A stretch of DNA of 6,453 bases from the IMG/VR virus record IMGVR_UViG_2713896899_000008; one strand, given 5' to 3'. The translations under genes and the position numbers were made by a program. Under the pieces are notes generated by a model that had not been told where the DNA came from, did not search any database, and saw nothing but the letters and a program-made list of their open reading frames with translations. The DNA comes from a virus (lineage: Duplodnaviria > Heunggongvirae > Uroviricota > Caudoviricetes). Shown here in pieces: positions 1,283-5,703 of this stretch. Each line of letters starts with the position of its first letter. The stretch's first letter is position 1.

Positions 1283-1404
1283 GGTATTAAAAAACGCTCC
1301 GCACACATAAGTTGGGCGCCTGAGATGCGGGGATAGGGAGTTGGTTAAATAGTTATACAACAATACCTGATTTTGCATTGAAGCAAGGAGGAGGTTGCCA
1401 CATA

Positions 1405-1533
1405 TTGAATCATGCACGTGTACGTCAAATGTGGGAGGTCATCGTGCTGGTTCTGAAATGTGCGCTGGCTATTGCGGCTGTAATGGCAATTTATTGTCTT
1501 GTTATTGTTCTTATGGAGCACCTTTCTGATTGA
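1405..1533 (+). CDS. Candidate small single-pass membrane peptide (42 aa from TTG 1405; 34 aa from ATG 1429)
   Basis: Strong SD AAGGAGGAGG (1385-1394), then in-frame TTG 1405 and ATG 1429, stop TGA 1531-1533. Product (MNHARVRQ)MWEVIVLVLKCALAIAAVMAIYCLVIVLMEHLSD has a basic N-terminus and one hydrophobic helix. T is regular at codon position 2. An overlapping frame is also open, so coding status is unproven. Confidence 0.3.
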   Translation: MNHARVRQMWEVIVLVLKCALAIAAVMAIYCLVIVLMEHLSD

Positions 1534-1557
1534 TTTCATATTGGCGAGGTGACGGGA

Positions 1558-1587
1558 GTTAAGTAGAATTGCTGTGGGTGCTTGAGG
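1558..1587 (+). promoter_or_regulatory. hok mRNA 5' element complementary to the 3' end (tac-like)
   Basis: GTTAAGT (1558-1564) and GGGTGCTTGAGG (1576-1587) are antiparallel-complementary to ACTTAAC (1965-1971) and CCTCAACGCACCC (1950-1962, one bulged C), which sit just 5' of the hok terminator. Confidence 0.4.
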
Positions 1588-1744
1588 CTATCTGTCTCAG
1601 GCATGAACACCAACGGCAGATAGAGAAAAGCCCCAGTTAACATTACGCGTCCTGCAGGACGCTTAACATTAATCTGAGGCCAATTTCATGCTAGACACAT
1701 GTAGGTTAGCCTCTTACGTGCCGAAAGGCAAGGAGAAGCAGGCT

Positions 1745-1900
1745 ATGAAGCAGCAAAAGGCGATGTTAATCGCCCTGATCGTCATCTGTTTAACCGTCAT
1801 AGTGACGGCACTGGTAACGAGGAAAGACCTCTGCGAGGTACGAATCCGAACCGACCAGACGGAGGTCGCTGTCTTCACAGCTTATGAACCTGAGGAGTAA
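1745..1900 (+). CDS. hok: Hok/Gef-family type I toxin (51 aa), HokD/RelF-like
   Basis: Product MKQQKAMLIALIVICLTVIVTALVTRKDLCEVRIRTDQTEVAVFTAYEPEE matches the Hok family hallmark (N-terminal TM helix, conserved Cys, C-terminal periplasmic tail) and is near-identical to E. coli HokD as I recall it. SD AAGGAG (1730-1735) at 9-nt spacing. Confidence 0.9.
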   Translation: MKQQKAMLIALIVICLTVIVTALVTRKDLCEVRIRTDQTEVAVFTAYEPEE

Positions 1901-1949
1901 GAGACCAGGCGAGGGAGAAATCCCTCGCCACCTCTGATGAGTCAGGCAT

Positions 1950-1971
1950 CCTCAACGCACCCGCACTTAAC
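1950..1971 (+). promoter_or_regulatory. hok mRNA 3' fold-back element (fbi-like), partner of 1558-1587
   Basis: See the 1558-1587 feature. Position immediately upstream of the terminator hairpin matches the hok-family mRNA architecture. Confidence 0.4.
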
Positions 1972-1995
1972 CCGCTCCGGCGGGTTTTGTTTTTT
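1971..1995 (+). terminator. Rho-independent terminator of the hok transcript
   Basis: Stem CCCGC (1971-1975) / GCGGG (1980-1984) with loop TCCG, followed by TTTTGTTTTTT (1985-1995). A 9-bp GAAA-loop hairpin lies upstream at 1908-1929. Confidence 0.75.
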
Positions 1996-2067
1996 CCTGG
2001 CATTCTGGTTTACAATTCGCACGCCAGCCTGAACAACTGGCACCTGCTGCGCCAGCAGAGACAGCCG

Positions 2068-2346
2068 ATGGCGCACGATACCAAATTACACAATTCTGAT
2101 GATTCTGCCGTCTTTGCCAGCAGGTGTGGACGGCGTTTTCACGCATTCAAATCGGACTGGTTCCAGCATCCCCCATGCACTGAAGAGCAGGCTGAATGGA
2201 TAATTCAGTGTTACCGCAGGCGCGGATACGAGGTTAAGAAAGCCCTTAGTCTCGACTACCGTCACTGGATAATCTCAGTCAGATTGCCTTACTCCGAACG
2301 CCCACCACGTGCGTCCCGCACTTTCCAGCAACGGATCTGGAGGTAA
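2068..2346 (+). CDS. Hypothetical small protein (92 aa), at the position rem occupies between hokD and ydfU in Qin
   Basis: First ATG in the open frame is 2068. The ORF-track start at 1987 is a TTG inside the terminator T-tract. Stop TAA 2344-2346 lies inside the SD spacer of the next gene. SD for 2068 is weak. Confidence 0.4.
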   Translation: MAHDTKLHNSDDSAVFASRCGRRFHAFKSDWFQHPPCTEEQAEWIIQCYRRRGYEVKKALSLDYRHWIISVRLPYSERPPRASRTFQQRIWR

Positions 2347-2347
2347 C

Positions 2348-3403
2348 GTGCGGGTATTACTTAGACCTGTTCTGGTGCCTGAGCTTGGGCTGGTGGTCCT
2401 TAAGCCGGGCCGTGAATCCATACAGATATTTCATAATCCTCGAGTGCTGGTGGAACCGGAACCAAAAAGCATGCGTAATCTGCCATCCGGAGTCGTTCCT
2501 GCCGTTGGCCAGCCGCTGGCGGAAGACAAAACATTGCCGCCGTTTTTTAGTAACGAACGGGTGATTCGTGCTGCTGGCGGCGTTGGCGCATTGTCTGACT
2601 GGCTATTACGTCATGTTACATCCTGCCAGTGGCCTAATGGCGATTACCATCACACTGAAACAGTCATTCACCGTTATGGTACCGGCGCAATGGTGTTGTG
2701 CTGGCACTGCGACAACCAACTGCGTGACCAGACATCGGAATCACTGGAGCTGCTTGCTCAACAAAATCTGACAGCATGGGTGATTGACGTCATCCGTCAC
2801 GCAATAAGCGGTACGCAGGAGCGGGAATTATCTTTGGCTGAATTATCCTGGTGGGCGCTCTGCAATCAGGTGGCGGATGCGCTACCTGAGTCAGTATTAC
2901 GTCGTTCGCTGGGGTTGCGTGCGGAAAAAATCCGCTCAGTGTACCGTGAAAGCGACATCGTACCGGGAGAGCAGACCGCCACCAGCATACTGAAGCAGCG
3001 CACAAAAAATCTTGCGCCGCTGCCTCACGCCCACCAGCAAAACCCGCCACAGGAAAAGACGGTGGTCAGCATTGCCGTTGATCCGGAGTCACCGGCTCAG
3101 TATCTCCAGCGCCAGAAACCACAACGGGAAGAGATGCCTGTATACACGCGCTGGGTAAAAACGCAGAAATGCATGACGTGCGGTAATCAGGCGGATGATC
3201 CGCATCACATCATTGGTCATGGACTGGGAGGAATGGGAACAAAGGCTGATGATTTGTTTGTTATTCCGCTGTGTCGCAAATGCCATAACGAACTACACGC
3301 CGGAGTAAAAGATTTTGAAGACAAACACGGCAGCCAGTTGTTGTTGCTGATTCGTTTTTTAATGCACGCGAGAAATTCGGGCGTCCTGAAGTGGAAAGCA
3401 TAA
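2348..3403 (+). CDS. DUF968-family protein (YdfU-like) with C-terminal HNH-like zinc-binding nuclease motif
   Basis: GTG 2348 preceded by GGAGG (2339-2343). C-terminus CMTCGNQADDPHHIIGHG...CRKCHNELH has the CxxC...HH...CxxCH spacing of an HNH-type motif. Start is less certain: in-frame GTG 2309 and ATG 2471 are alternatives. Confidence 0.65.
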   Translation: MRVLLRPVLVPELGLVVLKPGRESIQIFHNPRVLVEPEPKSMRNLPSGVVPAVGQPLAEDKTLPPFFSNERVIRAAGGVGALSDWLLRHVTSCQWPNGDYHHTETVIHRYGTGAMVLCWHCDNQLRDQTSESLELLAQQNLTAWVIDVIRHAISGTQERELSLAELSWWALCNQVADALPESVLRRSLGLRAEKIRSVYRESDIVPGEQTATSILKQRTKNLAPLPHAHQQNPPQEKTVVSIAVDPESPAQYLQRQKPQREEMPVYTRWVKTQKCMTCGNQADDPHHIIGHGLGGMGTKADDLFVIPLCRKCHNELHAGVKDFEDKHGSQLLLLIRFLMHARNSGVLKWKA

Positions 3404-3769
3404 ATGACTGAACATATAGAATTTGTTTTGCCTTACCCGCCGTCGGTGAACACCTACTGGCGCCGTCGTGGTGGCGTATATTTTGTATCAAAAGCCGGTG
3501 AGTGTTATCGCCGGGATGTGGCGCTTATTGTTCGCCAGAAGCGACTGAAATTAAATCTGTCCGGTAGGTTGGCAATCAGGATTATTGCAGAGCCACCGGA
3601 TAAGCGCCGCCGCGACCTGGACAATATCCTGAAAGCACCACTGGATGCGCTGACGCATGCCGGACTTCTTATAGACGACGAGCAGTTTGATGAAATCAAT
3701 ATTGTGCGCGGTCAGCTCGTTCCTGGTGGGCGGCTGGGGATAAAAATCACAGAACTGGAGTGCGCATGA
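3404..3769 (+). CDS. rusA: RusA-family Holliday junction resolvase (121 aa)
   Basis: ATG 3404 directly abuts the upstream stop (TAA 3401-3403). Product carries the RusA signature PPDKRRRDLDNILKAPLDALT and a C-terminal GGRL motif, closely paralleling E. coli RusA. Confidence 0.88.
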   Translation: MTEHIEFVLPYPPSVNTYWRRRGGVYFVSKAGECYRRDVALIVRQKRLKLNLSGRLAIRIIAEPPDKRRRDLDNILKAPLDALTHAGLLIDDEQFDEINIVRGQLVPGGRLGIKITELECA

Positions 3770-4455
3770 ATAGCCAGTATTTACAGTTTGTGCGTGAGCA
3801 GCTCATTATCGCCACCGCTGATTTGAGTGGGGCAACAAAAGGTCAGCTTGAAGCCTGGCAGGAGAATGCCATGTTCGATACAGGGCGTTACAGGCGTAAA
3901 AAAATCCGGTACCGGGATGAGGTGACTGGAAAAATGATAACGCGGGATAATCCACCAATCCCGGGAAAACAATCACTGGCGAAGGGGACGTCAATTCCTC
4001 TGGTCAGTCCGGTTGAGTTTTCGACATCATCGTGGCGGCGGGCTGTTCTGTCTCTTGAAGAACATCATAAAGCCTGGTTGTTGTGGTGTTACAGCGGGAA
4101 TATTTGTTGGGAATATCAGATCGCGATAACACAGTGGGCGTGGAATGAATTTAATACTCAATCCGGTACCAGAAAAATTGCAGGGAAAACGCAGGAACGC
4201 CTGAAAAAATTAATCTGGCTGGCGGCGCAGGCAGTAAAAGCAGAACTTTTTGGTGGGGAAGGTTATGAATACCAGGAGCTGGCATTACTGGCGGGAGTGA
4301 CAACTAAAAACTGGTCCAAAACATTTACTCGTCACTGGGTTGCAATGAAACACATTTTTTACCGACTGGATAGTGAGGCTTTATTGTTTGTAATGAGAAC
4401 ACGTTCAAAACAAAAGGTGGCATTTTCAAAGCAAAGTGTTGCAAAAGTAGATTGA
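3766..4455 (+). CDS. Putative late-gene antiterminator Q (QuuQ/phage-82-type, not the lambda zinc-finger type)
   Basis: ATG 3766 overlaps the rusA stop (ATGA). It sits immediately upstream of a promoter-terminator pair and the lysis cassette, the canonical Q position. Assignment is mainly positional; no zinc-finger motif. Confidence 0.55.
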   Translation: MNSQYLQFVREQLIIATADLSGATKGQLEAWQENAMFDTGRYRRKKIRYRDEVTGKMITRDNPPIPGKQSLAKGTSIPLVSPVEFSTSSWRRAVLSLEEHHKAWLLWCYSGNICWEYQIAITQWAWNEFNTQSGTRKIAGKTQERLKKLIWLAAQAVKAELFGGEGYEYQELALLAGVTTKNWSKTFTRHWVAMKHIFYRLDSEALLFVMRTRSKQKVAFSKQSVAKVD

Positions 4456-4467
4456 AAGGCATATATT
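4439..4467 (+). promoter_or_regulatory. PR'-like late promoter (TTGCAA, 17 nt spacer, TATATT)
   Basis: -35 TTGCAA (4439-4444) and -10 TATATT (4462-4467), overlapping the Q stop codon. Predicted start near 4474, about 50-70 nt upstream of the tR'-like terminator. Confidence 0.45.
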
Positions 4468-4521
4468 TCATGCAAATCTGATATTTTGCCGATTTTGTAC
4501 GTGATGGCAAAAGCAAACAAA

Positions 4522-4547
4522 ACCCGCCCACAAGCGGGTTTTTTTTG
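4522..4547 (+). terminator. tR'-like intrinsic terminator
   Basis: Stem ACCCGC (4522-4527) / GCGGGT (4534-4539), loop CCACAA, followed by an 8-T run ending at 4546. Confidence 0.75.
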
Positions 4548-4628
4548 TGCCACTTATCTCGGATAGACATGGTGAATGCGCTGGTGGAGGAAGTAAGGGT
4601 GATTTTTAATCAGGTGATTTTTGAATGC

Positions 4629-4657
4629 TTGCAACATTGATTTCGTAACGTTATTAT
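4629..4657 (+). promoter_or_regulatory. Sigma70-type promoter of the tRNA array (TTGCAA, 17 nt spacer, TATTAT)
   Basis: -35 at 4629-4634 and -10 at 4652-4657; the first tRNA starts at 4667, about 10 nt downstream. Confidence 0.5.
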
Positions 4658-4666
4658 CCTGCACCC

Positions 4667-4742
4667 GGCCCTTTAGCTCAGTGGTGAGAGCGAGCGACTC
4701 ATAATCGCCAGGTCGCTGGTTCAAATCCAGCAAGGGCCACCA
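4667..4742 (+). tRNA. tRNA with CAU anticodon, ileX/ileZ-like (tRNA-Ile2, lysidine type; Met not excluded by anticodon alone)
   Basis: 76 nt cloverleaf: acceptor GGCCCTT/AAGGGCC, D-stem GCTC/GAGC, anticodon loop CTCATAA, T-loop TTCAAAT, A73, encoded CCA. Overall sequence resembles E. coli ileX. Confidence 0.88.
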
Positions 4743-4743
4743 A

Positions 4744-4820
4744 CCGCCACTAGCTCATCAGGAAAGAGCGTCAACCCTTTAAGTTGAGTGTGCGAGGTTC
4801 GAGTCCCCGGTGGCGGTCCA
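4744..4820 (+). tRNA. Atypical tRNA, anticodon loop CCTTTAA (nominal anticodon UUU, Lys)
   Basis: 77 nt cloverleaf: acceptor CCGCCAC/GTGGCGG (C1:G72), D-stem GCTC/GAGC, anticodon stem TCAAC/GTTGA, T-arm CGAGG-TTCGAGT-CCCCG, U73, encoded CCA. C at position 33 and U73 are unusual for a Lys tRNA. Confidence 0.6.
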
Positions 4821-4822
4821 GT

Positions 4823-4898
<76 letters not shown>

Positions 4899-4901
4899 TA
4901 T

Positions 4902-4976
<75 letters not shown>

Positions 4977-5083
4977 GTATTTATCTGCATATTTCCTTTT
5001 GAGTCCCGTTTTGTTAGAGGTATTGGGCTGTTGACGGGGCTGATATCCACTCTCCACCTTTCAGGGAGATAGGATTTAAGGAG

Positions 5084-5121
5084 CCAACCGGTTAGAGTCT
5101 GCTTTGTTCCTAACCAGTTGG
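5084..5121. terminator. Inverted-repeat hairpin between the converging tRNA operon (+) and YagU-like gene (-)
   Basis: CCAACCGGTTAG (5084-5095) and CTAACCAGTTGG (5110-5121) pair at 11 of 12 positions with a 14-nt loop. A T-rich tract follows on the + strand only. Confidence 0.3.
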
Positions 5122-5139
5122 TTATGTTATTTGAGATGG

Positions 5140-5703
5140 TTAGTTTTTATTCGCCGTCCATTTACCACAAATTGGTCTGGAGAAGATTGCCAGAATGGCA
5201 ATAAAGGATATTTCAATTGAAACAGACCAGCATATATGTCCAATCAGTTCGCTCCAGAATTCATAGCCGTTTAGATTCCATAGCCACCCTCTTTCATGGC
5301 CGGGAAGATACGCGGGAAATCTGAAGCCCAGCGCGGGTATTAAAATACCATGCATGACTAATGTAATAAGAATTCCATATACAGCCCCATACCACATGCG
5401 GACTCGTGGAATAAAAACAGACAGGTATATGTATACAAAGGCAAAAATGAAACTAAAAAGCCAATGATAGAGCATAACAGCTCCGGGAATTGTTACTCCC
5501 TGGTAAATGTAATCCAGCGAGTGTGAATTTATTCCCAGAAAACCCAACCAGGCGTCGATATTCATTGCTGGTGGAGAAATTTCTCCGGCCATTCTTGGGG
5601 GCATGTTAGCTTCAGTTCCTGATTTCACCAGAGAGCTGATCGCGCCACCGACCAGTGTTGCCCAAAGTATGATTTTTAGATTTACGCTATTCCATTTACA
5701 CAT
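5140..5703 (-). CDS. DUF1440/YagU-family inner membrane protein (187 aa)
   Basis: Minus-strand ATG at 5703-5701 is preceded by GAGG at 6-nt spacing; stop is TAA (complement of 5140-5142). Product shares blocks with E. coli YagU as recalled (VKSGTEANMPPR, MWYG, MHGILIPALG, SELIGHICWSVSIEI). The 280-aa ORF-track version is rejected as an N-terminal extension. Confidence 0.62.
   Translation of the reverse strand: MCKWNSVNLKIILWATLVGGAISSLVKSGTEANMPPRMAGEISPPAMNIDAWLGFLGINSHSLDYIYQGVTIPGAVMLYHWLFSFIFAFVYIYLSVFIPRVRMWYGAVYGILITLVMHGILIPALGFRFPAYLPGHERGWLWNLNGYEFWSELIGHICWSVSIEISFIAILAIFSRPICGKWTANKN

What the first reader, a model, noticed from the sequence alone, without database searches (positions are those of the whole stretch)
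1283..1995. Free-standing hok-family toxin locus with tac/fbi-like long-range mRNA complementarity
The hok CDS (1745-1900) is preceded by about 460 nt without a convincing long ORF and followed by a strong terminator. Two leader segments (1558-1564, 1576-1587) are antiparallel-complementary to two segments just before the terminator (1965-1971, 1950-1962). That is the 5'-3' fold-back expected of hok mRNAs, which keeps full-length mRNA translationally inert. In E. coli K-12, hokD sits behind relBE and is described as lacking its own mok/sok elements; here there is no relBE and the leader looks intact, so this copy may be a functional antisense-regulated module inside a prophage.
Basis: partly seen in the sequence, partly recalled or inferred. 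Interest (0 to 1): 0.6.

Follow-up and report, generated by a model that had tools for sequence, protein, structure and literature searches.

The report
Intact hok/mok/sok toxin-antitoxin locus in prophage
This is a complete but ordinary copy of the well-known hok/sok RNA-controlled toxin-antitoxin cassette in a lambda-like prophage, nearly the same as the characterised hokW-sokW locus of Shiga-toxin phages and found in most E. coli genomes.

Summary
Window 1541-1995 (+) holds a complete hok/mok/sok type I toxin-antitoxin cassette in the nin region of a lambdoid prophage (Ren-like, nin ORFs, hok, DUF968/HNH, RusA, Q, four tRNAs). Rfam's hok-leader model ('sok', RF01794) scores 115 bits and Pfam HOK_GEF 77 bits.

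GGGUGCUUGAGG (1576-1587, tac) pairs with CCUCAA-C-GCACCC (1950-1962, fbi). It closes the minimum-energy fold and co-varies across Escherichia, Kluyvera, Photorhabdus, Pantoea and Erwinia loci.

The second pairing (1558-1564 with 1965-1971) is an exact 7-mer complement. However, it lies in the hok promoter upstream of the predicted start (about 1576), is at chance level and does not co-vary.

Removing the 3' end in silico reproduces the published tac/ucb plus mok-SD/dcb refolding. The antisense promoter matches the mutated sokW -10 element.

K-12-type relBE-hokD keeps homology only from 1731 onward, so this copy is the intact form. It is not new: hokW-sokW is characterised and 4956 of 5426 complete E. 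coli genomes match.

Side notes: an almost unannotated, conserved 29-aa membrane-peptide ORF (1444-1533), and a private TAC-to-TAT change that removes the TadA editing motif in hok.

The parts
1541..1569 (+). hok promoter: -35 TTGGCG (1541-1546), 17-nt spacer, -10 TAGAAT (1564-1569). The predicted transcription start is about G1576.
   Evidence: It is the only sigma-70-like site on the + strand of 1200-2100. A -10-like hexamer sits 6-8 nt before the conserved GGGYGCUUGAG in all hok loci, while sequence further upstream diverges.
1576..1587 (+). tac (translational activator element), the 5' end of hok mRNA: GGGUGCUUGAGG.
   Evidence: It aligns to position 1 of the Rfam RF01794 model. It pairs with fbi in the MFE fold and co-varies with it.
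1588..1623 (+). Conserved leader hairpin (GCUAUCUGU...GCAGAUAG).
   Evidence: It appears in the MFE fold. Helix 2 is 95.5% paired, with 3 pairs changed on both sides.
1628..1636 (+). ucb / anti-SD box (AAGCCCCAG). It sequesters the mok SD in the full-length fold and pairs with tac in the truncated fold.
   Evidence: the Rfam consensus structure; the model is described in PMC9841398.
1622..1697 (-). Predicted Sok-like antisense RNA (about 72-76 nt). It has a single-stranded 5' tail complementary to the mok start codon and SD, then a long hairpin followed by a CUUUUCUCU tail.
   Evidence: Fold energy is -32.3 kcal/mol, z = -5.6. The ends are inferred from the promoter and U-tract, not mapped.
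1703..1731 (-). Sok promoter: -35 TTGCCT (1731 to 1726), 17-nt spacer, -10 TAACCT (1708 to 1703).
   Evidence: The sequence is identical to Stx2-phage hokW-sokW here. Primers YO-421/422 of PMC8621323 mutate exactly this -10 to make the 'pro-less' sokW. The key positions are invariant in 42 loci. The consensus scan did not call it, because the -10 matches only 3 of 6.
1676..1679 (+). mok Shine-Dalgarno GAGG, 8 nt before the mok ATG at 1688.
   Evidence: It is paired with ucb in the full-length fold and with dcb (1709-1713) in the truncated fold. The columns are invariant.
1688..1900 (+). mok reading frame (70 codons). It starts 57 nt upstream of hok and is in frame with it.
   Evidence: PHROG 251 'MokW-like host killing', 8e-32. 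The same 57-nt in-frame layout occurs in 30 of 42 loci; 8 have 58 nt (+1 frame).
1711..1735 (+). Hairpin CUCUU-ACG-UGCC-GAAA-GGCA-AGGAG, which sequesters the hok SD (AGGAG, 1731-1735).
   Evidence: MFE fold. Helix 7 is 99.5% paired across 42 loci.
1745..1900 (+). hok toxin CDS, 51 aa: MKQQKAMLIALIVICLTVIVTALVTRKDLCEVRIRTDQTEVAVFTAYEPEE.
   Evidence: Pfam PF01848, 76.6 bits. It is 98% identical to the HokD-type proteins of E. coli, E. albertii and Shigella. PGAP names the equivalents hokD.
1883..1886 (+). Tyr47 codon in the context TAT-G instead of the family-wide TAC-G (the TadA A-to-I editing motif).
   Evidence: Of 129 hok copies held, 121 have TACG, 4 have TAAG and only the window has TATG. 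The nearest relative, L142, has TACG. Motif rule: PMC5630033.
1908..1929 (+). 3' UTR hairpin GGCGAGGGA-GAAA-UCCCUCGCC. It is the expected protective 3' stem-loop of the processed (truncated) mRNA.
   Evidence: Helix 17 is 97.7% paired, with 4 pairs changed on both sides. The role is inferred from R1 (PMC9841398).
1950..1962 (+). fbi (fold-back inhibitory element): CCUCAA-C-GCACCC.
1969..1995 (+). Intrinsic terminator of hok mRNA (AACCCGC-TCCG-GCGGGTT followed by TTGTTTTTT).
1444..1533 (+). Adjacent, separate small gene: a 29-aa hydrophobic peptide MLVLKCALAIAAVMAIYCLVIVLMEHLSD. It has a GTG start 5 nt after the SD GGGAGG and ends 8 nt before the hok -35.
   Evidence: It is open in all 84 copies held. 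Variable sites by codon position are 5/5/15. Identical-length 29-aa 'membrane protein' calls exist in E. coli. It has no Pfam, PHROG or NCBIfam family.

Best explanation
Window 1541-1995 is a complete, canonical hok/mok/sok type I toxin-antitoxin cassette of the hokD/hokW lineage. It sits in the nin region of a lambdoid prophage and points the same way as the early-right operon.

Mechanism (inferred from the R1 and hokW systems; the elements themselves are shown here):
1. A promoter at 1541-1569 makes a roughly 420-nt hok mRNA starting near G1576.
2. In the full-length RNA, the 5' tac (1576-1587) pairs with the 3' fbi (1950-1962). The mok SD (1676-1679) is held by ucb (1628-1636), and the hok SD sits in its own hairpin (1711-1735). 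The RNA is therefore neither translated nor bound by Sok.
3. Slow 3' trimming back to the hairpin at 1908-1929 removes fbi. tac then pairs with ucb, and the mok SD moves to a weaker stem with dcb.
4. Either Sok RNA binds the mok start region, giving a duplex that is degraded, or ribosomes translate mok, open the hok SD hairpin and make the membrane-depolarising Hok peptide. Sok is transcribed from the minus strand (promoter 1731 to 1703; RNA about 1697 to 1622).

By analogy with hokW-sokW, the likely biological role is to add to host killing or lysis when the prophage is induced or lost. K-12 hokD is the truncated derivative of this arrangement.
For: - Family matches: Rfam RF01794 at 115.3 bits (threshold 59) over 1576-1750, end to end; Pfam HOK_GEF 76.6 bits; PHROG 251 MokW-like, 8e-32.
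- Promoter: the only + strand promoter-like site puts the start at about 1576.
- Fold: the MFE fold of 1576-1995 closes tac on fbi, z = -8.7.
- Conservation of the fold: across 42 loci the structure is 85.9% paired against 37-45% for slid controls. It has 42 pairs with changes on both sides against 17-26 for slid controls. The tac/fbi helix is 90.7% paired.
- Compensatory changes in tac/fbi: U-A to C-G and G-C to A-U.
- Refolding: deleting the 3' 50 nt gives tac/ucb plus mok-SD/dcb, exactly as described for R1 (PMC9841398).
- Sok: the fold is -32.3 kcal/mol, z = -5.6. The Sok promoter is identical to that of hokW-sokW, whose -10 was inactivated by mutation with loss of antitoxin activity.
- Precedent: hokW-sokW was shown to be a functional type I TA in Sp5 (PMC8621323).
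- Comparison with K-12-type hokD: the relBE-hokD locus matches the window only from 1731 onward.
Against: - No expression data exist for this locus; the transcript ends, Sok RNA and toxicity are all inferred.
- The consensus promoter scan did not detect the Sok promoter, whose -10 matches 3 of 6.
- Duplex-energy significance of tac/fbi alone is modest, at 30 of 2000 shuffles.
- This copy carries a private TAC-to-TAT change that removes the TadA editing motif needed to recode Tyr to Cys, plus G37D. Its Hok may therefore be less toxic than relatives.
- Chromosomal hok loci tested in the literature often fail to show post-segregational killing (bioRxiv 10.1101/2025.08.07.668861).
Confidence: 0.9

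Rival explanations
1. The cassette looks intact but is a functionally attenuated or decaying copy. The Hok peptide cannot be converted to its more toxic Cys form because the TadA editing motif is lost, so the locus no longer kills effectively.
For: Tyr47 is TAT-G, whereas 121 of 129 hok copies held have TAC-G, and only the window has TATG. PMC5630033 reports that this Tyr is always TAC within TACG and never TAT. Cys at this position is reported as important for toxicity in HokB (PMC12214031). Four other copies have TAA (a stop) at the same codon, suggesting recurrent inactivation there. The G37D substitution is also present.
Against: Every regulatory element is intact and nearly identical to functional hokW-sokW. 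Editing of K-12 hokD is reported at only 6% (PMC12214031), so loss of editing may matter little. Unedited Hok proteins, including HokD, are toxic on overexpression (bioRxiv 10.1101/2025.08.07.668861). The change is a single synonymous transition relative to a 97%-identical neighbour, so it is recent. D37 also occurs in other hok sequences.
Confidence: 0.2
2. The hok mRNA starts near 1550 and is closed by two helices (1558-1564 with 1965-1971, and 1576-1587 with 1950-1962), giving an extended fold-back.
For: The 7-mer complement is exact. Both segments are conserved among the closest prophage-type relatives: 55 copies hold GTTAAGT and ACTTAAC.
Against: - The 1558-1564 segment lies in the promoter spacer and -10.
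- It is not used in the MFE fold of 1550-1995.
- It is at chance level.
- Variants change on one side only.
- The functional hokW locus has GCTTTAC at the 3' site.
- K-12-type hokD keeps ACTTAAC with no 5' partner at all.
- The 3' segment overlaps the terminator stem.
- The Rfam model and all distant loci start at GGGYGC.
Confidence: 0.04
3. Activation comes mainly from phage early-right (PR) read-through rather than from decay of Sok after gene loss. On induction, N-antiterminated transcription enters from upstream on the + strand and runs against the convergent Sok promoter, silencing it. It also produces 5'-extended hok transcripts that cannot form the proper tac-ended structures. Hok then appears as a lysis helper.
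For: hok points the same way as ren, the nin ORFs, rusA and Q, and Sok is convergent to them. In Sp5, sokW RNA disappears and HokW appears after mitomycin C in a RecA-dependent way, and phage release is halved without the locus (PMC8621323).
Against: This is purely inferential here, with no transcript data. The published work did not identify the step that removes sokW. The cassette has its own promoter and terminator, and it is also found on plasmids and outside prophages with the same anatomy.
Confidence: 0.3

Closest known systems
hokW-mokW-sokW of Stx2 prophages (Sp5 of E. coli O157:H7 Sakai; 933W-type phages)
   Same: Both sit in lambdoid prophages. The leader, the tac and fbi sequences, the hok SD hairpin, the Sok promoter and the first 43 Hok codons are nearly identical. 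Both have the in-frame 70-codon mok. Both match PHROG 251 'MokW-like'. The system is experimentally proven as a type I TA (PMC8621323).
   Different: The Sok 5' tail and its target patch differ (1680-1696: CCAATTTCATGCTAGAC versus CTCAATCCATGCTGAAC). The Hok C-terminus differs (FTAYEPEE versus FVDYESEK). The terminator after fbi is different. The window has TAT instead of TAC at the editable Tyr. The neighbouring genes also differ.
hokD (relF) of the E. coli K-12 Qin prophage, behind relBE
   Same: The toxin is the same (51 aa, one residue different). The hok SD, 3' UTR hairpin, fbi and terminator are the same, and the downstream gene is shared (window 2051-2400 at 86%). PGAP names the window-type gene hokD.
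   Different: The K-12 type has relB-relE immediately upstream and matches the window only from 1731. It therefore lacks the hok promoter, tac, ucb, the mok start and the Sok -10. The window has all of these and no relBE.
hok/mok/sok of plasmid R1 (parB), the reference system
   Same: The architecture and predicted RNA switch are the same: tac/fbi closure, ucb/mok-SD sequestration, tac/ucb plus mok-SD/dcb after 3' trimming, antisense Sok over the mok start, and a Hok/Gef toxin (PMC9841398). An R1-like plasmid locus (L140) shows GGCGCUUGAGG / CCUGAAGCGCC in the equivalent places.
   Different: Nucleotide similarity is limited to about 80 nt of the leader, and HokW-type toxins are 44% identical to R1 Hok (PMC8621323). 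In the R1-like locus mok is 58 nt upstream (+1 frame), against 57 nt in frame here. The window's Sok/leader hairpin carries an extra palindrome, GCGTCCTGCAGGACGC. The location is a prophage, not a plasmid.

Membership tests
hok/mok/sok type I toxin-antitoxin loci | Hok/Gef-family toxin of about 50 aa with an N-terminal transmembrane helix | tested here: met
   PF01848 at 76.6 bits (cut-off 22) on 1745-1900. NCBIfam Hok models hit below their curated cut-offs, 44.8 against 73.
hok/mok/sok type I toxin-antitoxin loci | Conserved hok mRNA leader / Sok locus (Rfam RF01794) | tested here: met
   115.3 bits against a gathering score of 59, model positions 1-157 of 157, at 1576-1750. The Rfam model is on the hok-mRNA strand, so it shows homology of the locus, not expression of the antisense RNA.
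hok/mok/sok type I toxin-antitoxin loci | 5' tac pairs with 3' fbi to close the full-length mRNA, and the pairing is maintained by compensatory change | tested here: met
   MFE closure, z = -8.7. Helix 1 is 90.7% paired. The column pair 29/427 is UA 27 / CG 12 / UG 2 / other 1.
hok/mok/sok type I toxin-antitoxin loci | The 3'-truncated mRNA refolds into tac/ucb and mok-SD/dcb stems | tested here: met
   The MFE fold of 1576-1945 shows both stems, matching the description in PMC9841398. This is in silico only.
hok/mok/sok type I toxin-antitoxin loci | An overlapping mok frame with its own SD, upstream of a structurally sequestered hok SD | tested here: met
   mok runs 1688-1900 with SD GAGG at 1676-1679. 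The hok SD hairpin 1711-1735 is 99.5% paired in 42 loci.
hok/mok/sok type I toxin-antitoxin loci | Antisense Sok gene with a promoter inside the mok/hok overlap, a 5' tail complementary to the mok start region, and a terminator hairpin | tested here: met
   The promoter TTGCCT-17-TAACCT (1731 to 1703) is identical to the sokW promoter whose -10 was mutated in PMC8621323. Hairpin plus U-tract fold at -32.3 kcal/mol. The generic promoter scan missed it.
hok/mok/sok type I toxin-antitoxin loci | Sok RNA is expressed and represses hok; Hok kills when Sok is lost | not testable with these tools
   This needs Northern blots or RNA-seq and toxicity assays. It has been shown for the near-identical hokW-sokW (PMC8621323).
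HokC/HokD/HokE subgroup (editable Tyr) | Tyr at alignment position 46 encoded by TAC within TACG, the TadA A-to-I editing motif | tested here: not met
   The window has TAT-G at 1883-1886. Of 129 copies held, 121 have TACG. Rule from PMC5630033.
K-12-type relBE-hokD arrangement (leaderless hokD) | relB-relE directly upstream and the hok leader truncated | tested here: not met
   No RelB/RelE ORF is present in the window, and the leader is complete. For contrast, L005 has RelB and a ParE/RelE-family toxin and matches the window only from 1731.

The most novel reading that the evidence does not exclude
The 29-aa hydrophobic peptide gene at 1444-1533 is almost never annotated and ends 8 nt before the hok promoter. 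In roughly 90% of the prophage copies retrieved through the peptide, the hok promoter follows directly. It may be a functional partner of hok/sok, for example a second membrane-active peptide or a modulator of Hok. That would make this a two-peptide membrane module of lambdoid prophages rather than a lone hok cassette.
Probability: 0.12. Interest if true: 0.4.

Novelty: already known. Interest (0 to 1): 0.15.

Why it matters
It adds little new knowledge. The window confirms that the intact form of the 'hokD' locus, with its own promoter, tac, ucb, mok, Sok and fbi, is what lambdoid prophages normally carry. K-12's relBE-hokD is the truncated exception.

This is useful for annotation, because PGAP labels only the toxin CDS and marks neither mok nor the Sok RNA.

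Two small leads could be worth a bench test:
- a naturally 'uneditable' hok allele (TAT instead of TAC at the TadA site), which could serve as a natural control for the role of A-to-I editing in HokD-type toxins;
- a conserved, essentially unannotated 29-aa membrane peptide gene next to the cassette.

Tried and rejected
Rejected after shuffle tests, folding, promoter placement and a covariation census.
- Exact-run complementarity as a statistic for tac/fbi. This is uninformative because a bulge splits the pairing into 6+6. I replaced it with duplex energy and covariation.
- MAFFT alignment A1 mis-registers the 5' half of fbi in the Photorhabdus rows by one column, because of the bulged C. Helix 1 counts therefore understate pairing; register-aware counts are. 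My locus selection used loose regular expressions for tac and fbi. This guarantees part of the complementarity but did not constrain the co-varying positions.
- In-frame mok as a possible peculiarity. Rejected as unusual: 30 of 42 loci, and an IncHI1 plasmid locus, have the same 57-nt in-frame layout.
- Family searches for the 29-aa or 40-aa upstream ORF in Pfam, PHROGs and NCBIfam found nothing meaningful. A search of 5.8 billion proteins returned only 20 unnamed or 'membrane protein' Escherichia entries.
- A first attempt at search for related loci with the 40-aa form failed because the query was too short.
- Weak Rfam hits (isrK, ceN48, CRISPR-DR28, CsrC, Phe/Leu leaders) are all below their gathering scores and were treated as noise or terminator resemblance.
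- Minus-strand ORFs across 1345-1539 and 1536-1643, which some phage records annotate, were judged non-genic. The codon-position signal lies in the + frame.
Full report
CONTEXT

The window is the early-right/nin-to-lysis stretch of a lambdoid prophage, with all genes on the + strand:
- a Ren-like exclusion protein (1-291, PHROG 142) and nin-region ORFs (450-1282);
- the hok locus;
- a 92-aa ORF (2068-2346, PHROG 1212);
- a DUF968/HNH protein (to 3403), RusA (3404-3769) and antiterminator Q (3760-4455);
- four tRNAs (4667-4976);
- a minus-strand YagU/DUF1440 gene (5140-5703);
- the start of a holin gene at the window's end.

The closest complete E. coli genome matches 1418-6453 at 97.2%. No genome in that collection covers 80% of the window.

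CHECKING THE OBSERVATION

The coordinates are accurate. hok lies at 1745-1900 (Pfam HOK_GEF 76.6 bits). The previous ORF ends at 1282. A terminator follows at 1969-1995. Both complementarities exist in the sequence. They differ sharply in quality.

First pair: 1576-1587 GGGUGCUUGAGG with 1950-1962 CCUCAA-C-GCACCC.
- It closes the minimum-energy fold of 1576-1995 (-173.4 kcal/mol, z = -8.7).
- Its duplex energy is reached by 30 of 2000 shuffled 3' UTRs.
- It co-varies. Escherichia loci have U4-A; Photorhabdus and Pantoea have C4-G. Kluyvera and Photorhabdus have A12-U where Escherichia has G12-C. U-G intermediates also occur.

Second pair: 1558-1564 with 1965-1971.
- It is at chance level: 77 of 2000 shuffles of the narrow flanks and about 30% of wide-flank shuffles reach a 7-mer or longer complement, and its duplex energy is weaker than the shuffle mean.
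- It is absent from the MFE fold of 1550-1995.
- It shows only one-sided changes among relatives.
- It is not preserved in the functional hokW locus.
- It lies in the spacer and -10 of the only + strand promoter, TTGGCG-17-TAGAAT at 1541-1569.

In every hok locus collected, a -10-like hexamer sits 6-8 nt before the conserved GGGYGCUUGAG, and similarity ends upstream of it. Rfam's model also begins exactly at 1576. The predicted 5' end is therefore about 1576, not about 1550.

WHAT IT IS

All parts of a canonical hok/mok/sok cassette are present.
- Leader: Rfam RF01794 matches 1576-1750 end to end at 115 bits. This model is on the hok-mRNA strand and ends at the hok AUG, so it identifies the leader and Sok locus rather than the antisense transcript itself.
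- Full-length fold: ucb (1628-1636) holds the mok SD (GAGG, 1676-1679). The hok SD (1731-1735) is buried in a hairpin that is 99.5% paired across 42 loci.
- Truncated fold: deleting the last 50 nt makes the MFE structure switch to tac/ucb plus mok-SD/dcb. This is the switch described for R1 (PMC9841398).
- 3' UTR hairpin: 1908-1929 is conserved with compensatory changes. It is positioned to protect the processed 3' end.
- Minus strand: TTGCCT-17-TAACCT (1731 to 1703) precedes a sequence that folds into a free 5' tail covering the mok AUG and SD, followed by a long hairpin with a U-rich tail.
- Sok promoter: it is base-for-base identical to that of hokW-sokW. The primers used by Takada et al. 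to make the promoter-less sokW change exactly this -10.
- Whole structure: across 42 loci from Escherichia, Shigella, Kluyvera, Pseudocitrobacter, Citrobacter, Photorhabdus, Pantoea and Erwinia, it is 85.9% paired against 37-45% for slid controls. It has more than twice the covariation score of the slid controls. One caveat applies: the structure was derived from the window itself.

RELATION TO KNOWN LOCI

- A relB-relE-hokD locus (L005, Pfam-confirmed) shares homology with the window only from 1731, 14 nt before the hok AUG. It shares it again downstream of the terminator. The window shows the intact arrangement at the same prophage position.
- The intact arrangement is common and known. 4956 of 5426 complete E. 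coli genomes have a match, and 1498 cover at least 80% of 1283-1995.
- Phage records annotate it as MokW, mok/hok or 'host killer'.
- The near-identical hokW-sokW of Sp5 has been shown to be a functional type I TA that aids lysis and phage release after induction (PMC8621323).
- A recent survey reports hok enrichment in prophages (bioRxiv 10.1101/2025.08.07.668861).
- PGAP annotates only the toxin CDS as hokD.

HOW IT MOST LIKELY WORKS

The elements above are shown in the sequence; the dynamics are inferred from R1 and hokW.
1. The full-length hok mRNA is inert.
2. 3' trimming activates it.
3. Sok binding at the mok start leads to decay of the duplex.
4. When Sok is lost, mok translation opens the hok SD and Hok depolarises the membrane.

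hok points the same way as the PR operon and Sok is convergent to it. Read-through on induction could therefore silence Sok, which would fit the RecA-dependent loss of sokW. That is inference only.

PECULIARITIES OF THIS COPY

1. The editable Tyr codon is TAT-G (1883-1886). Of 129 hok copies held, 121 have TAC-G, four have TAA-G and none other has TAT. The 97%-identical neighbour has TAC. Bar-Yaacov et al. state that this Tyr is never TAT. This allele should therefore escape TadA recoding to Cys. Whether that matters is uncertain, because hokD editing in K-12 is only 6%.
2. Hok carries G37D.
3. The Sok tail and target patch (1680-1696) differs from hokW. It is the most variable part of the leader across loci. 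This fits copy-specific antisense recognition, but I did not test it.
4. mok is in frame with hok, but so it is in 30 of 42 loci.

THE 'EMPTY' 460 NT

The interval contains a conserved small gene at 1444-1533.
- It has the SD GGGAGG and a GTG start, and encodes a 29-aa peptide, MLVLKCALAIAAVMAIYCLVIVLMEHLSD.
- It is open in all 84 copies held.
- Variable sites by codon position are 5/5/15, and amino-acid replacements are conservative.
- The sequence upstream of the SD diverges between groups and contains stop codons.
- A few E. coli records call exactly this 29-aa 'membrane protein'.
- It has no described family.
- It is usually followed directly by the hok promoter, but five loci have it without hok. 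Several hok loci lack it. It is therefore a separate module.

VERDICT

The feature is already known, and interest is low.

Noticed in passing
window 1444-1533 (+): A conserved 29-aa hydrophobic peptide ORF (MLVLKCALAIAAVMAIYCLVIVLMEHLSD) with a GTG start after the SD GGGAGG. It shows a third-codon-position bias in variation (5/5/15) and is open in all 84 copies. It is almost never annotated, has no family, and was found only in Escherichia prophages. It ends 8 nt before the hok -35.
   Followed up: partly
window 1883-1886 (+): The hok Tyr47 codon is TAT-G rather than the family-wide TAC-G TadA editing motif. This is the only such case among 129 hok copies held, and the 97%-identical E. coli neighbour has TAC. 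Four other copies have TAA (a stop) at the same codon.
   Followed up: partly
window 1680-1696 (+) / Sok 5' tail (-): The patch between the mok SD and the Sok -10, which is the Sok recognition tail and its target, is the most variable part of an otherwise near-identical leader. It reads CCAATTTCATGCTAGAC here and CTCAATCCATGCTGAAC in hokW. This suggests copy-specific antisense pairing among the several hok loci per genome (median 2, up to 9 matching places per E. coli genome).
   Followed up: no
window 1646-1662: A palindrome, GCGTCCTGCAGGACGC, extends the leader / Sok terminator hairpin relative to the Rfam consensus, where it appears as an 18-nt insertion. It is shared by prophage-type and Kluyvera loci but is absent from hokC-like and Photorhabdus loci.
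   Followed up: no
window 1688-1900 (+): mok is in frame with hok (57 nt upstream), so mok translation would give an N-terminally extended 70-aa Hok. The same holds in 30 of 42 loci and in an IncHI1 plasmid locus. R1-like and some Kluyvera/E. coli loci have 58 nt (+1 frame).
   Followed up: yes
window 4667-4976 (+): A cluster of four tRNAs lies just downstream of Q and the late-promoter/terminator region: CAT (called Met by ARAGORN and Ile by PGAP in the homologous locus), Lys-TTT, Thr-TGT and Gly-TCC. This differs from the ileZ-argN-argO set that I recall for Stx phages (from memory, not checked here).
   Followed up: no
window 4464-4548 (+) and 1909-1990 (+): There are sub-threshold Rfam resemblances to the Salmonella prophage sRNAs isrK and isrJ: 22.7-28.3 bits against gathering scores of 37-50. 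One lies after Q, at the expected late-promoter leader and terminator. The other lies on the hok 3' UTR. They are probably just terminator-type similarity.
   Followed up: no
window 5140-5703 (-): A YagU/DUF1440 inner-membrane protein gene sits on the opposite strand between the tRNAs and the lysis cassette, in a moron-like position. It is flanked by several hairpin-plus-T-run terminators (about 5985-6015, 6240-6280 and 6330-6385).
   Followed up: no
L001 (E. coli P4), L034, L065, L066: These hok copies have TAA at the editable Tyr codon, giving a 46-aa truncated Hok. PGAP still annotates this as HokD in L001.
   Followed up: no
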